Of a stretch of 64,000 nt of DNA, positions 18,252 to 30,401 are shown one piece after another; position 1 is the first letter of the stretch; every line of letters starts with the position of its first letter. Source of the stretch: a virus. The notes beneath the pieces are model-generated. The model was not told the DNA's origin and ran no database searches. It saw nothing but the letters and a program-made list of their open reading frames with translations. The stretch lies in IMG/VR virus record IMGVR_UViG_3300044716_000973, positions 1-64,000 of that record; one strand, written 5' to 3'. Made by a program: the position numbers and the translations under genes.

Positions 18252-18692
18252 ATGAAGAAGTTTATTGCACTAGCGCTTATCGCCCTAGCCACCACTCCAG
18301 CTATTGCTCAGAAGACACCAGTTGGTGTTACCTATGACACCACTATTGTCCGTGCCATTGATGGTGATACAATTGTTGTTACCGCGCCATATCTTCCAGC
18401 GCCACTGAAGCCTGAGCTGGGTGTTCGTATCTTTGGTGTCGACACTCCAGAGAAAAGCTTCCGCGCTAAATGTGAAAGCGAAAAGAAGCGTGGTGAGCAA
18501 GCTTCTGTCTTTACAAAAGACGTAATTGCTGCGACAAAGAAGCACCAGGTTGTTCTATACGATTGGGACAAGTTTGGTGGCCGTATTCTTGGCGATATCT
18601 TGCTTGATGGTATGAGCCTTCGTGATCTGCTTATCAAGAATGGTTTTGCTCGTGAATATTATGGCGACGCAAAGCAATCTTGGTGCAATTAA
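18252..18692 (+). CDS. Thermonuclease (SNase-like) with signal peptide
   Basis: IDGDT, RIFGVDTPE, DKFGGRILG, LIKNGFAREY; N-terminal MKKFIALALIALATTPAIA. Confidence 0.92.
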   Translation: MKKFIALALIALATTPAIAQKTPVGVTYDTTIVRAIDGDTIVVTAPYLPAPLKPELGVRIFGVDTPEKSFRAKCESEKKRGEQASVFTKDVIAATKKHQVVLYDWDKFGGRILGDILLDGMSLRDLLIKNGFAREYYGDAKQSWCN

Positions 18693-18695
18693 TGG

Positions 18696-18726
18696 TTGAC
18701 ATTTAAATCAATCTAGTATATAAATA
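18696..18726 (+). promoter_or_regulatory. Composite sigma70 and T4-late promoter for the tmRNA
   Basis: TTGACA (18696)-N17-TATAAATA (18719-18726). Confidence 0.8.
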
Positions 18727-18730
18727 GAAT

Positions 18731-19084
18731 ATCAGTTGTTGACAATCAACAATAAAGGTTCCGAGGACGCGGGGGCAGTACCCGCCACCTCCACCATAGA
18801 CACTCTGGGCCGAATACACACCGGCTAATAAAAGTTTCGATTACTATTGCTGAAATCCGGGCAATAGAATAGGCAGAGTTTGGAATCGCAGGTACTCTCT
18901 AGCCAGAGTGTCTATGATGGGGGTGAACTAGGATCGACTGGGATGGAATAGGGCGGTTCGAGACTGATTGATTGGCAAAGTGCCACTAAACGTAAATGCA
19001 AACGATAACAACGCATATGAAGGTCTTGCACTAGCTGCATGATTTTTCGGGGGATGGGTTCCACCTAGCAACAGAACGGGCCCA
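18731..19084 (+). ncRNA. ssrA: Circularly permuted (two-piece) tmRNA, alphaproteobacterial type
   Basis: Acceptor piece first: T-arm GCGGG-GGCAGTA-CCCGC (18769-18785), then CACCTCC-ACCA (18786-18796). Coding piece starts GGGGGTG (18919), giving G3.U70, then AACTAGGATCGAC. Tag frame 18998-19042 = ANDNNAYEGLALAA*. Outer ends approximate. Confidence 0.95.
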
Positions 19085-19121
19085 CACATACCACGAGTTG
19101 TTCTAGAAACACCACGAGTGG

Positions 19122-19152
19122 TTGACATTTATAGATCTATGGTGTATAAATA
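19122..19152 (+). promoter_or_regulatory. Composite sigma70 and T4-late promoter
   Basis: TTGACA (19122)-N17-TATAAATA (19145-19152); same design as the tmRNA promoter. Confidence 0.8.
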
Positions 19153-19156
19153 AAAT

Positions 19157-19412
19157 ATCGCAACGGAGGTTGGAACCTCCATTGACTCTTACAAAGCTTC
19201 AAGTCTTAGGGCTATAGAAAGCGGAATTATCTAACATCTCAGATGCACAATAATTCCACCGACGAAACCATAATGATTTTGCATTTCCAGTAAGAGGGAA
19301 ATGGATGGAAGATACCTTCGTTATTTCTTTTTGTATCTTCTCATAGCGACAGAAAAACTATAGGCTGAGATGCCTGCAAAGTAGTCTCTGTTTGCCAAAG
19401 TCATTTAAGATT
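19157..19412 (+). ncRNA. Candidate structured RNA or long leader of unknown family
   Basis: ~255 nt with no long + strand ORF; five hairpins and several loop-loop complementarities found by eye (see findings). Confidence 0.6.
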
Positions 19413-19423
19413 AGAGGATACAA

Positions 19424-20002
19424 ATGAAACTTTTCGAAAATAGAAAAGATTTCCCGTACCTGCGCTGGGCTGAAGGATTCTGCCTTGGTCTTGCTCTTGC
19501 TGCAGGTGCAGCAGTTGCAATGCCAACTAAGGAACCAGAAGTCAAGATTGTTAAGGTGCCTGAAGTCAAGGTAATCGAAAAAGAAGTTATCGTAAAAAAG
19601 CCAGTTTATCTGAGCGCTAACGATAAAAAACAAATCCAATGCATGGCCGAGAATACCTACTTCGAAGCAGGCCATGAACCCTACAAAGGTAGGATTGCGG
19701 TTAACAATGTTGTGTTAAACCGCGTCAAAGATGATAGATTCCCAAAAACACCATGCGGAGTAATTAACCAAAAAGCTCGAGGCGTATGCCAATTTTCATG
19801 GAAGTGTGAGGGAGGAAAGCGAATTCGTGACGGTGTAGCTTTCGCAAAAGCAAAAGAAATCGCCGAACACGTGTACCTAGGAAATTACGGTGACGTAACT
19901 AAAGGTGCAAAGTTCTACCACGCCGACTACGTAAGTCCTCGTTGGGGTAGAGTCTTTGATCGTACAACTAAGATTGGTGCACATATTTTTTATAGAGGAT
20001 GA
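19424..20002 (+). CDS. SleB-like cell wall hydrolase (Hydrolase_2) with N-terminal membrane anchor
   Basis: CMAENTYFEA, AVNNVVLNRV, FPKTPCGVI, CQFSW, GAKFYHADYVSPRW, IGAHIFY. Confidence 0.93.
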   Translation: MKLFENRKDFPYLRWAEGFCLGLALAAGAAVAMPTKEPEVKIVKVPEVKVIEKEVIVKKPVYLSANDKKQIQCMAENTYFEAGHEPYKGRIAVNNVVLNRVKDDRFPKTPCGVINQKARGVCQFSWKCEGGKRIRDGVAFAKAKEIAEHVYLGNYGDVTKGAKFYHADYVSPRWGRVFDRTTKIGAHIFYRG

Positions 20003-20008
20003 TTTATT

Positions 20009-20254
20009 ATGGTGGACGACGTTATCTTTCAAAAGACTATGTCTAATGAAAAGTTTATTAAAGAGATTGAAAATCTTGTGAAGACGTATAATTTAGATTA
20101 CATGGATGCCGTCGTCCACCTTTGTGAAAAGAATAATATTGAAATTGAGGCTGCTGCTTCAATTATCAAGAATAATATTAAAATCAAATCAAAACTTCAG
20201 TCTGCTGCTGAAGATCTTAACTATCTTCCTAAGACAGCCCGACTGCCAGTATGA
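20009..20254 (+). CDS. gp33: Late transcription coactivator gp33
   Basis: FIKEIE, YMDAVVHLCEKNNIEIE, LNYLPK; 33-59-32 synteny. Confidence 0.9.
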   Translation: MVDDVIFQKTMSNEKFIKEIENLVKTYNLDYMDAVVHLCEKNNIEIEAAASIIKNNIKIKSKLQSAAEDLNYLPKTARLPV

Positions 20255-29110: not shown

Positions 29111-29122
29111 TATTTATAAATA
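29111..29122. promoter_or_regulatory. Palindromic bidirectional late promoter TATTTATAAATA
   Basis: Reads TATAAATA on both strands between divergent gp4 and gp48. Confidence 0.8.
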
Positions 29123-29150
29123 AAGAAAGAACTTTCAAAGAAGAGAACAC

Positions 29151-30401
29151 ATGGCTATTATCAAGCTTAATAACGACGGATTGAGAAAAAGTAAAGGCAT
29201 TGCAAGCCGACTTATTGACAACGTCGTAAATAAAGTAGAACGAAAGCTCGAAAACGCAGTTGAAGATGCTTTTGGAAAAGCACTAAAGAAGATTGGACTG
29301 TCTGACAATATTGCGGGACAGCTTTCTGCTCGCTTTGGTGATGCGTTCTCTGTAGGTCAAGCTGATAGATTCTTTGGTACATCGACTTCTGAACAGAATA
29401 GAGTTTCTTCAAAGGATTGCGTAGATAATATATTAAATCGCCAAGCAGAAACTGTCGTAGATGCTCAACAGTCAATTACTAGCAAAGTTCAGTCAGATCC
29501 AGGATTGCTTCAATTCCCGCCTGACGTTGGCCCGTATTACATGCTTATGAAGTTTACAGAGTATGCTCGACCAAGCCCACAATCAGTAGCTACTCGCAAA
29601 GGCCTTAAAAACTTTATTCTTCCAGTTCCAAGAGAACTCAAAGAGCAATTTTCAAATAACATCGATCCAAAGGGTGTAGGTGTTGTAACCGGCGGCCTTG
29701 CAGATATTGGTACAGACGTTCTTCGAAGCGGAGGAAAAGATGGCGCTGGTGCTGAAGCTGGTAACCAATTAAAAGCAATTGCATATGCGGCTGCAGTTCA
29801 AACAATAGGAGACTTTGGAGATAGTCTTGCTCAATTTGGTGGCGCAGTTCCAAACCCGCATCTTCAAGCAATTTTTGGTGGTGTTCAAATGAGAACACAC
29901 AGTTTTCAGTGGACATTTTCTCCAAGAAATGCGATTGAAAGCAGACAACTTCAACAAATCATATATGAACTTAAGAAATATTCATTGCCAGCATTTAGTA
30001 ATCTCGGTACGGCATCTCTTCAATATCCACCATTAGTTGATATTGAATTGTATCCATGGAAAAAACTTGGTGAAGATTTAATTATTTTTAAGCCATGTTT
30101 AATCCAAAGTATTTCTGTAAACTACTCTCCACAAGGACTGCCATCATTTTTTAAGGGCACCAAACAACCAACATTCATTCAAATTTCAATTGACTTTATG
30201 GAAACTGAAATTCAGACTGCATATGATTATAGCACAAAGAAAGATGATAGATCTGATACTGCATCTGAAATATACAAGGAAGTAGCTGGATTTGCAACAA
30301 AAGAATTTCCAGAAATTTCTAATGTCGCAAGTAAAGCCGGTGGTTATATTAGTGGATTAGTGGATACCGCCGCGGCTGCTGCAGAAAAGGCTAATCGATA
30401 A
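29151..30401 (+). CDS. gp48: Baseplate tail tube cap gp48-like
   Basis: NPHLQAIFGGVQMRTHSFQWTFSPRNAIES, LQYP, ISVNYSP, IDFMETE. Confidence 0.85.
   Translation: MAIIKLNNDGLRKSKGIASRLIDNVVNKVERKLENAVEDAFGKALKKIGLSDNIAGQLSARFGDAFSVGQADRFFGTSTSEQNRVSSKDCVDNILNRQAETVVDAQQSITSKVQSDPGLLQFPPDVGPYYMLMKFTEYARPSPQSVATRKGLKNFILPVPRELKEQFSNNIDPKGVGVVTGGLADIGTDVLRSGGKDGAGAEAGNQLKAIAYAAAVQTIGDFGDSLAQFGGAVPNPHLQAIFGGVQMRTHSFQWTFSPRNAIESRQLQQIIYELKKYSLPAFSNLGTASLQYPPLVDIELYPWKKLGEDLIIFKPCLIQSISVNYSPQGLPSFFKGTKQPTFIQISIDFMETEIQTAYDYSTKKDDRSDTASEIYKEVAGFATKEFPEISNVASKAGGYISGLVDTAAAAAEKANR

What the first reader, a model, noticed from the sequence alone, without database searches (positions are those of the whole stretch)
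19157..19412. Unexplained ~255-nt kissing-loop-rich RNA behind a promoter built like the tmRNA promoter
Seen: promoter TTGACA-N17-TATAAATA followed by AATATC, as for the tmRNA. Hairpins: GGAGGT/ACCTCC (19165-19180); GGAATTAT/ATAATTCC (19223-19257); CATTTCC/GGAAATG (19282-19303); GAAGATAC/GTATCTTC (19308-19340); and GACAGA..ACTAT-AGGC-TGAGAT-GCCT..GTAGT.TCTGTT (19348-19392). GCTAT (19211) / ATAGC (19343) can close a multiloop. The loops have distant partners: ATCTCA (19236) with TGAGAT (19366); GTAAGAG (19290) with CTCTTAC (19186); TTCGTT (19317) with GACGAA (19261); TGCAAA (19375) with TTTGCA (19278). AGTCTTAGG (19202) can pair with TTTAAGATT next to the hydrolase RBS. I do not recognise the family. 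Inference: a compact multi-pseudoknot ncRNA (ribozyme- or riboswitch-like), or a switch controlling the downstream cell wall hydrolase. This is the best candidate for an undescribed element in the window.
Basis: partly seen in the sequence, partly recalled or inferred. Interest (0 to 1): 0.82.

Follow-up and report, generated by a model that had tools for sequence, protein, structure and literature searches.

The report
Pseudoknotted leader RNA before phage endolysin
The 260 bases between a late promoter and the cell-wall-cutting (lysis) enzyme gene of this uncultured T4-like phage fold into a conserved, pseudoknotted RNA of no catalogued family that always sits directly in front of that gene and probably controls when the enzyme is made.

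Summary
Window 19162-19423 (+) is a real structured RNA. It recurs in 70 distinct sequences from viral contigs. In each it lies behind a T4-type late-promoter motif (68 of 69) and directly ahead of the same SleB/Hydrolase_2 endolysin-like gene (70 of 70).

Covariation supports the fold: 94.8% of cells pair against 87.3% in shuffles, and 26 of 57 pairs change on both sides, on an alignment not fitted to the structure.

The fold has a 5' hairpin P1, a variable hairpin P3, and a 10-bp helix P4. P4 closes a junction of P5, P6 and P7.

- **P7 loop:** it is a GNRA tetraloop (67 of 70), not a kissing loop.
- **Loop pairings:** Two are rejected and one is undecided.
- **Outer helix:** a helix ending at the Shine-Dalgarno is moderately supported.
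- **P6 3' strand:** it can instead pair with the Shine-Dalgarno and spacer.

No Rfam family matches.

Best reading: a cis-acting translational control leader, riboswitch-like, with unknown signal. The function is inferred, not shown. This scan has already noted the same RNA family on other phage DNA.

The parts
19145..19152 (+). T4-type late promoter motif TATAAATA; the transcript is predicted to start a few bases before P1
   Evidence: sequence. NATAAATA or CTAAATA ends 3-13 nt before the model start in 68 of 69 homologues with enough upstream DNA. gp33 late coactivator, gp59 and gp32 genes lie just downstream. All 5 TATAAATA in the window are intergenic and point at a gene or RNA.
19165..19180 (+). 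P1: 5'-terminal hairpin GGAGG/CCUCC with a variable loop
   Evidence: 5 pairs. The loop-closing pair changes to U-A or A-U in 3 sequences, and A-U to G-U or G-C in 7.
19186..19192 (+). PK1 5' strand CUCUUAC, which pairs with the P5 loop
   Evidence: 70 of 70 paired. Variants are CCUUUAC/GUAAAGG (L323) and CCAUUAC/GUAAUGG (7 sequences), plus A-U to G-U in 9. PK1 was not part of the covariance model.
19202..19208 (+). PX 5' strand AGUCUUA (outer helix)
   Evidence: UCUUA/UAAGA against UCAAA/UUUGA. Cognate duplexes average -6.97 kcal/mol against -6.12 +/- 0.25 when permuted (0 of 5000 permutations reach it). The register varies.
19223..19257 (+). P3: variable hairpin, here with an 18-nt insertion that forms its own small stem (19235-19245)
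   Evidence: all 6 pairs change on both sides (for example C-G 35, U-A 27, A-U 8).
19258..19271 (+). J3/4: nearly invariant single strand ACCGACGAAACCAU
   Evidence: conservation lines.
19272..19281 (+). P4 5' strand AAUGAUUUUG
   Evidence: 10 pairs, 99.9% of cells paired, U-A/U-G exchanges in 18 and 8 sequences. L369 keeps all 10 pairs with 3 positions changed on both sides.
19282..19303 (+). P5 hairpin; its loop (GUAAGAG, 19290-19296) is the PK1 3' strand
   Evidence: 7 pairs, 100% paired, 3 pairs with both-side changes (U-A to C-G in 17; C-G to U-A in 15).
19307..19341 (+). P6 hairpin GGAAGAUAC/GUAUCUUCU with a variable loop; its 3' strand is complementary to the Shine-Dalgarno and spacer
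   Evidence: helix. (alternative pairing with 19413-19423: 12 bp, -14.3 kcal/mol, rank 1 of 52 gene starts in the window).
19348..19392 (+). P7: three-part stem capped by the U-GNRA-Y loop (GAGA at 19367-19370)
   Evidence: 12 of 14 pairs on A5, all 14 on A4, change on both sides. (U-GNRA-Y in 67 of 70, with GAGA, GGGA, GUGA, GAAA, GCGA).
19396..19405 (+). P4 3' strand CAAAGUCAUU
19406..19412 (+). PX 3' strand UAAGAUU, ending at the Shine-Dalgarno
19413..19423 (+). Shine-Dalgarno AGAGG and spacer AUACAA
   Evidence: The region is complementary to the P6 3' strand.
19424..20002 (+). Gene led by the RNA: 192-aa cell wall hydrolase with a hydrophobic, Gly/Ala-rich N-terminal segment
   Evidence: Pfam Hydrolase_2 PF07486, E 2.1e-24. 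PHROG endolysin phrog_938, E 1.7e-22. This ORF follows the RNA in 70 of 70 sequences.

Best explanation
Window 19162-19423 is the structured 5' leader of the late mRNA for an endolysin-like SleB/Hydrolase_2 enzyme. It acts in cis on translation of that gene.

**Shown: the fold**
- A 5' hairpin (P1).
- A pseudoknot between CUCUUAC and the P5 loop.
- A variable hairpin (P3).
- A 10-bp helix (P4) closing a junction of P5, P6 and P7.
- A GNRA tetraloop on P7.
- An outer helix (PX) whose 3' strand ends at, or in some homologues overlaps, the Shine-Dalgarno.

**Inferred: the mechanism**
The RNA has two states. In the folded state P6 holds the pyrimidine strand GUAUCUUCU, so the ribosome binding site stays free or is only clamped by PX. 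In the other state that strand pairs with AGAGGAUACAA (Shine-Dalgarno plus spacer) and blocks initiation. Something that stabilises the tertiary fold would then set how much lysis enzyme is made late in infection. It could be a small ligand, a protein, Mg2+ or folding kinetics. The signal is unknown.
For: **Structure**
- On the unfitted MAFFT alignment A5, 94.8% of cells pair against 87.3% in shuffles. 26 of 57 pairs change on both sides. No shuffle of 500 reaches any measure, and slid controls pair 46-54%.
- The model-fitted alignment A4 gives the same picture.
- The pseudoknot pairs in 70 of 70 sequences with three pair states, although it was never in the model.
- U-GNRA-Y caps P7 in 67 of 70.

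**Selection**
- Leader identity to the window is 63-91%, against 39-77% at third codon positions of the adjacent gene.

**Link to the gene**
- The hydrolase ORF starts within 16 nt of the model end in 70 of 70 sequences.
- The RNA is present in 55 of 78 loci fetched with hydrolase relatives.
- The tmRNA upstream is found in only 14 of 20 loci, at distances from about 0.05 to 1.2 kb, and with tRNAs between in L363.
- The tie is therefore to the hydrolase, not to the tmRNA.
- Contigs from three RNA libraries run from the leader into the coding sequence: 19193-19480, 19291-19470 and 19353-19570. This is weak evidence.

**Switch**
- The P6 3' strand pairs with the window's ribosome binding region over 12 bp at -14.3 kcal/mol. 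That ranks 1 of 52 gene starts.
- Across 46 distinct combinations the mean is -10.6 against -5.7 kcal/mol for shuffled sites.
- The enforced native fold scores -71.1 kcal/mol plus -6.9 for the pseudoknot. The unconstrained optimum, which uses the alternative pairing, scores -77.6.
- PX cognate duplexes are more stable than permuted ones.
Against: - No experiment or read-level data show a switch, a ligand or an effect on translation.
- The P6 3' strand is nearly invariant, so its pairing with the Shine-Dalgarno cannot covary. A purine-rich Shine-Dalgarno matches any pyrimidine-rich strand to some degree, and the shuffled control breaks the purine run. In the largest clade the match is only about 7 bp.
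- PX has no fixed register and fails or is weak in several lineages, such as L043, L084, L326 and L373.
- Nearest-neighbour energies ignore tertiary contacts.
- RNA-library contigs can contain DNA and show neither ends nor strand.
- Sequence counts are not independent events: one change inherited by a clade counts many times.
- No intrinsic terminator or processing site was sought experimentally, so a stable processed RNA is not excluded.
Confidence: 0.6

Rival explanations
1. Constitutive structured leader. The fold is real but does not switch. It protects the late mRNA from 5'-end-dependent decay through the 5'-terminal P1 hairpin and compact fold, or it sets a fixed, low translation rate for a dangerous membrane-targeted hydrolase.
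For: P1 sits within a few bases of the predicted 5' end. The cis link to the gene is the same as for the best explanation. No ligand or alternative state has been shown.
Against: Roughly 250 nt with invariant junction strands, a pseudoknot and a GNRA tetraloop is far more than end protection needs. In about a third of the 46 distinct combinations (11) the Shine-Dalgarno and spacer match the P6 3' strand over 9-12 predicted bp, top rank in the window.
Confidence: 0.2
2. Stand-alone stable non-coding RNA. It is transcribed from its own late promoter next to the tmRNA gene and acts in trans, like the unexplained small RNAs C and D of the T4 tRNA region. The hydrolase is merely the next gene.
For: Its promoter resembles the tmRNA promoter. 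It lies in an RNA-gene neighbourhood: tmRNA in 14 of 20 loci, tRNAs in L363. Its size and tertiary motifs fit stable RNAs. T4 RNAs C and D have no known role (PMC3014915, passages read).
Against: The distance to the tmRNA varies, whereas the hydrolase start follows within 16 nt in 70 of 70. No terminator-like site separates RNA and gene on the + strand. PX ends at the Shine-Dalgarno. RNA-library contigs bridge the RNA and the coding sequence in three runs. Model R1 found nothing in the five genomes that hold L238, L276, L230, L252 and L201, nor in two order-level samples of 151 bacterial genomes each. It found no second copy in the window.
Confidence: 0.12
3. Self-cleaving or otherwise catalytic RNA that processes the late transcript.
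For: It is a compact pseudoknotted fold with invariant junction nucleotides and a GNRA tetraloop.
Against: No known ribozyme family matches, even at E up to 10. Nothing in the data points to a cleavage site. Contigs in RNA libraries span 19193-19480 without a break.
Confidence: 0.04

Closest known systems
Translational control of the phage T4 lysozyme gene e by mRNA structure (reviewed in PMC3014915; passages read)
   Same: It is a T4-type phage. The gene for the cell-wall-cutting lysis enzyme is preceded by RNA structure that can hide the Shine-Dalgarno, and late promoters are involved. The aim would be the same: no premature lysis.
   Different: In T4 a simple hairpin forms only in long early transcripts, and late promoters lie inside it, so late transcripts lack its 5' half. 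Here the only TATAAATA (19145) lies upstream of the whole ~250-nt fold. Late transcripts therefore carry the entire pseudoknotted structure. There is no sequence similarity, and the enzyme family differs (Hydrolase_2, not T4 lysozyme).
Riboswitches with translational expression platforms (general class)
   Same: It is a conserved multi-helix core with invariant junctions, variable peripheral stems, a pseudoknot and a GNRA tetraloop. A closing helix has its 3' strand abutting the Shine-Dalgarno. A three-element arrangement is possible: P6 5' strand, P6 3' strand, Shine-Dalgarno.
   Different: No ligand is known or testable here. No Rfam riboswitch family matches. At about 245 nt it is larger than most aptamers.
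Glutamine riboswitch next to the two-piece tmRNA gene of marine Melnitz-like and pelagibacter myophages (PMC9004378; passages read)
   Same: It occupies the same genomic slot in related T4-like phages: two-piece tmRNA, then a structured regulatory RNA, then the gp33 late coactivator gene.
   Different: No glnA RNA match was found. The RNA here is about four times larger by my recollection of the glnA motif's size, which no call checked. A hydrolase gene sits between it and gp33.
c-di-AMP (ydaO-yuaA) riboswitch, which by my recollection often precedes cell wall hydrolase genes
   Same: It is a large pseudoknotted leader in front of a peptidoglycan hydrolase gene.
   Different: No match to that Rfam family, even at E up to 10. 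The architecture does not show its two-fold pseudo-symmetry. The gene association is recalled, not taken from a call.

Membership tests
Any Rfam 15 family (4227 models) | Covariance-model score at or above the family's gathering score | tested here: not met
   No match in 19157-19423 at gathering score or at E up to 10. None on the leader in 20 diverse homologous loci.
Two-piece tmRNA (as a third piece or extension) | Lies inside the tmRNA gene, or at a fixed place relative to it | tested here: not met
   Rfam and ARAGORN end the tmRNA at 19086/19133. In homologues the tmRNA is found in 14 of 20 loci, at about 0.05-1.2 kb, with tRNAs between in L363.
Riboswitch (kind) | Conserved structured aptamer supported by covariation | tested here: met
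Riboswitch (kind) | Specific binding of a small ligand | not testable with these tools
   Needs in-line probing, ITC or similar.
Riboswitch (kind) | Expression platform: alternative pairing that hides or frees the Shine-Dalgarno | tested here: inconclusive
   P6 3' strand against the Shine-Dalgarno: 12 bp in the window, rank 1 of 52, but weaker in the largest clade and without covariation. PX ends at or overlaps the Shine-Dalgarno.
T4 gene e type inhibitory hairpin | Late promoter inside the structure, so that late transcripts lack its 5' half | tested here: not met
   The only TATAAATA near the gene is at 19145, upstream of the whole fold.
T4 gene e type inhibitory hairpin | Shine-Dalgarno sequestered in a helix | tested here: inconclusive
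   Predicted only.
GNRA tetraloop (motif) | Four-base loop G-N-R-A kept while N and R vary | tested here: met
   U-GNRA-Y in 67 of 70, with GAGA, GGGA, GUGA, GAAA, GCGA. Its receptor was not identified.
Protein-coding gene or conserved uORF | Open frame kept across homologues | tested here: not met
   The longest ORF (39 codons, MARKRH...) occurs in 25 of 70, and the window lacks its start codon. Leader lengths fall in all three classes mod 3 (34/21/15).

The most novel reading that the evidence does not exclude
This is a new riboswitch class carried by T4-like phages. It senses a metabolite or infection-state signal and gates translation of the lysis enzyme, making it an RNA-based lysis-timing switch. 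It would also be the kind of riboswitch candidate in T4-related genomes that the 2010 T4 review said had not yet been characterised (PMC3014915).
Probability: 0.27. Interest if true: 0.88.

Novelty: new variant of a known kind. Interest (0 to 1): 0.72.

Why it matters
Phage lysis timing is usually explained by proteins such as holins and antiholins, and in T4 by a simple hairpin before gene e. Here the endolysin-like gene of a widespread group of uncultured T4-like phages is led by a large tertiary-structured RNA. It is conserved as strongly as the protein it precedes. It would therefore be a new structured RNA family and a strong orphan-riboswitch candidate. If it switches, it gives a directly testable RNA mechanism for controlling a lethal enzyme late in infection. 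It would also offer a compact regulatory part for phage engineering in laboratory strains.

Tried and rejected
- *Kissing loop ATCTCA/TGAGAT:* rejected. 5 of 70 sequences show 5 or more Watson-Crick pairs. The P3 insertion is missing in most homologues.
- *TGCAAA/TTTGCA:* rejected, 9 of 70.
- *GCTAT/ATAGC:* not supported, 2 of 70 with 5 or more pairs. 60 of 70 keep 4, but variants such as ATAGA, ATAGG, ATAGT, ATAAC and ATTGC are uncompensated.
- *TTCGTT/GACGAA:* undecided.
- *CUCUUAC as an anti-Shine-Dalgarno:* rejected. Where it changes to CCAUUAC the Shine-Dalgarno stays AAGAGG and the P5 loop changes instead.

**Other tests**
- A scan for further covarying column pairs found none outside the helices, except a local 57/58-63 coupling that I could not interpret.
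- Coding reading: rejected.
- blastn of 18600-20100 against 50,697 phage records found no match.

**Searches in cellular genomes**
- The genome contigs pattern scan used a pattern that was too loose. None of its 120 stretches holds the RNA by nhmmer.
- Model R1 found nothing in the five genomes that hold L238, L276, L230, L252 and L201, nor in two order-level samples of 151 bacterial genomes each. That means not found in those searched, not absent. The host is unknown.

**RNA libraries**
- All four runs are contigs, so they show no ends, strand or level.
- No contig covers 19113-19169 in any run. This proves nothing.

**Literature**
- 'riboswitch, endolysin, late promoter, pseudoknot' returned 7 papers, none on this RNA.
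- 'structured RNA, phage, metagenom, cell wall hydrolase, motif' returned 0 papers.
- 'tmRNA, T4-like, freshwater, cell wall hydrolase' returned 43 papers, 15 listed, none on this RNA.
- Supplements were not opened.
- The metagenome-contig scan, protein structure tools and complex prediction were not used.

Full report
**Setting.**
The window is a viral contig (73 kb record, CheckV estimate 43% complete) of a T4-like phage.
- Downstream of the finding lie genes for the gp33 late-transcription coactivator (PF16805), gp59 and gp32.
- The gp32 protein is closest to those of cyanomyophages, at 52-62% identity.
- Upstream lies a permuted two-piece tmRNA: Rfam RF01849 at 109 bits and RF04321 at 106 bits, and ARAGORN at 18704-19133.
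- The finding fills the gap between that tmRNA and a 192-aa ORF at 19424-20002. The ORF is a Hydrolase_2 cell wall hydrolase (PF07486, E 2.1e-24) and matches PHROG endolysin families.
- The ORF has a hydrophobic, Gly/Ala-rich N-terminal segment (translation). Reading it as a signal-anchor-type endolysin is my inference.

- The promoter-like TTGACA-N17-TATAAATA and all five hairpins are in the sequence as described.
- Single-sequence folding is better than shuffles on both strands (z -3.7 and -3.9). It therefore neither picks the strand nor proves a structure.
- Comparison with relatives settles it. The hydrolase protein retrieved 80 viral-contig loci. The ~280 nt upstream are conserved at 75-100% in nearly all of them.
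- A conserved-core pattern scan and a search with a hydrolase alignment added more loci. A covariance model built from 55 distinct sequences (R1) then found the RNA in 55 of the 78 loci.
- Of the other 23, most (L374-L395) match the query only from about residue 51-56 onward. Those I looked at carry a signal-peptide-type or other N-terminus, or are cut at a contig end.

**Covariation.**
- I used 70 distinct sequences in a plain MAFFT alignment that was not fitted to any structure (A5).
- On it, 94.8% of cells form standard pairs against 87.3% in shuffles. 26 of 57 pairs change on both sides (292 cells against 74). No shuffle of 500 reaches any measure.
- Sliding the 3' partners by 1-3 columns drops pairing to 46-54%.
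- The model-fitted alignment A4 gives 96.4% pairing and 33 of 57 pairs.
- These counts are sequences, not independent events.
- G-U pairs in P3 and P4 would be C-A on the other strand, so the RNA is on the + strand.

**Architecture (coordinates).**
- P1: 19165-69/19176-80.
- Pseudoknot PK1: 19186-92 with the P5 loop at 19290-96.
- PX: 19202-08/19406-12.
- P3: 19223-30/19250-57. Here it carries an insertion that most homologues lack.
- Invariant strand ACCGACGAAACCAU: 19258-71.
- P4: 19272-81/19396-405.
- P5: 19282-88/19297-303.
- P6: 19307-15/19333-41.
- P7: 19348-92.
- P4 closes the P5/P6/P7 junction. RNAalifold proposed it, and it is 99.9% paired with many U-A/U-G exchanges.
- A distant, reduced homologue (L369; 17.2 bits, E 0.0011 with filters off) keeps all ten P4 pairs with three positions changed on both sides, and lacks P7.

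**The pseudoknot is the strongest single result.**
It was not in the model, yet it pairs in 70 of 70 sequences. It occurs as three pair states:
- CUCUUAC/GUAAGAG;
- CCUUUAC/GUAAAGG (L323);
- CCAUUAC/GUAAUGG (7 sequences).

A further A-U to G-U change occurs in 9 sequences.

**The other loop pairings.**
- The P7 loop reads U-GNRA-Y in 67 of 70, with five different GNRA sequences. It is a tetraloop for tertiary docking, not a kissing partner.

**Link to the gene.**
- A late-promoter motif (NATAAATA or CTAAATA) ends 3-13 nt before the model start in 68 of 69 sequences. The hydrolase ORF starts within 16 nt of the model end in 70 of 70.
- The tmRNA was found in only 14 of 20 diverse loci, at variable distance.
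- The leader is conserved at 63-91% identity to the window. Third codon positions of the adjacent gene are at 39-77%.
- No frame is conserved inside the leader.
- Contigs from three RNA libraries of three studies bridge leader and coding sequence: 19193-19480 and 19291-19470 without differences, and 19353-19570 with two. They are contigs, may contain DNA, and show no ends.

**How it may work (inferred).**
- PX is an outer helix whose 3' strand ends at the Shine-Dalgarno. Its sequence covaries (UCUUA/UAAGA against UCAAA/UUUGA).
- In several lineages PX shifts to UCUUAGAU/AUCUAAGA, which covers the first bases of AAGAGG.
- Cognate 5'/3' strands pair better than permuted ones: -6.97 against -6.12 +/- 0.25 kcal/mol, with 0 of 5000 permutations reaching it. 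Several lineages fit poorly.
- Separately, the P6 3' strand is complementary to the Shine-Dalgarno plus spacer. In the window this is 12 bp at -14.3 kcal/mol, the best of 52 gene starts. Across 46 combinations the mean is -10.6 against -5.7 kcal/mol for shuffled sites.
- The unconstrained minimum-energy fold uses that pairing (-77.6 kcal/mol). The native nested fold scores -71.1 plus -6.9 for the pseudoknot, so the two are roughly equal.
- This is the layout of a translational switch, but no call shows switching.

**Comparison with what is known.**
- No Rfam family matches, and three literature searches found no description.
- The nearest functional precedent is T4 gene e. There a hairpin hides the ribosome binding site in early transcripts, and late promoters lie inside it (PMC3014915, passages). 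Here the promoter precedes the whole fold, so that defining feature is not met.
- In marine Melnitz-like myophages a glutamine riboswitch occupies the same slot between the two-piece tmRNA and gp33 (PMC9004378, passages). It is an unrelated RNA.
- The same review states that no riboswitch had been characterised in T4 and that T4-related genomes might offer candidates.

**Earlier notes of this scan.**
The same RNA family was already noted on other phage genomes. In one case a follow-up agent reached the same general reading. I re-derived the structure independently here.

**Verdict.**
This is a real, conserved, pseudoknotted leader RNA of an undescribed family, almost certainly acting in cis on an endolysin-like gene. 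A riboswitch-like translational switch is the best-supported mechanism, but it is unproven.

Noticed in passing
window 18704-19133 (+): Phage-encoded permuted two-piece tmRNA with tag ANDNNAYEGLALAA behind its own TATAAATA (18719). Homologues are found in 14 of 20 related loci.
   Followed up: partly
L369:251-448: Reduced, highly diverged form of the leader before a 48%-identical hydrolase. It has no P7, P4 is rewritten as AACAACUUUG/CAGAGUUGUU, and PK1 is kept as CUCUUAC/GUAGGAG.
   Followed up: partly
L377:2183-2302 and the like in L381-L393: Hydrolase relatives with a signal peptide (201 aa) lack the leader. After a terminator-like hairpin they share another conserved upstream element: CAGTG..CACTG hairpin with a GGGGAG loop, followed by CCCTCTC. 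It is a possible small pseudoknot.
   Followed up: no
L005:2660-3000: Only the 3' 159 nt of the leader are present (100% identical), and the 5' half is replaced by unrelated sequence. This is either recombination or an assembly chimera.
   Followed up: no
window 29111-29122: Two overlapping TATAAATA motifs on opposite strands sit at the junction of divergent gene clusters (ORFs ending at 29150 on - and starting at 29151 on +). All 5 TATAAATA of the window are intergenic and point at a gene or RNA, though the count is not above chance.
   Followed up: no
window 20009-20254 (+): The gp33 late-transcription coactivator gene starts 7 nt after the hydrolase stop. A late promoter plus this leader may therefore also head the gp33-gp59 genes.
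   Followed up: no
A4 columns 57/58 and 63 (window about 19206-19212): Coupled change UU..A against AA..U within AGUCUUAGAU / AGUCAAAGUU. It is not explained by a feasible local hairpin. It may be part of PX or simply shared ancestry.
   Followed up: partly
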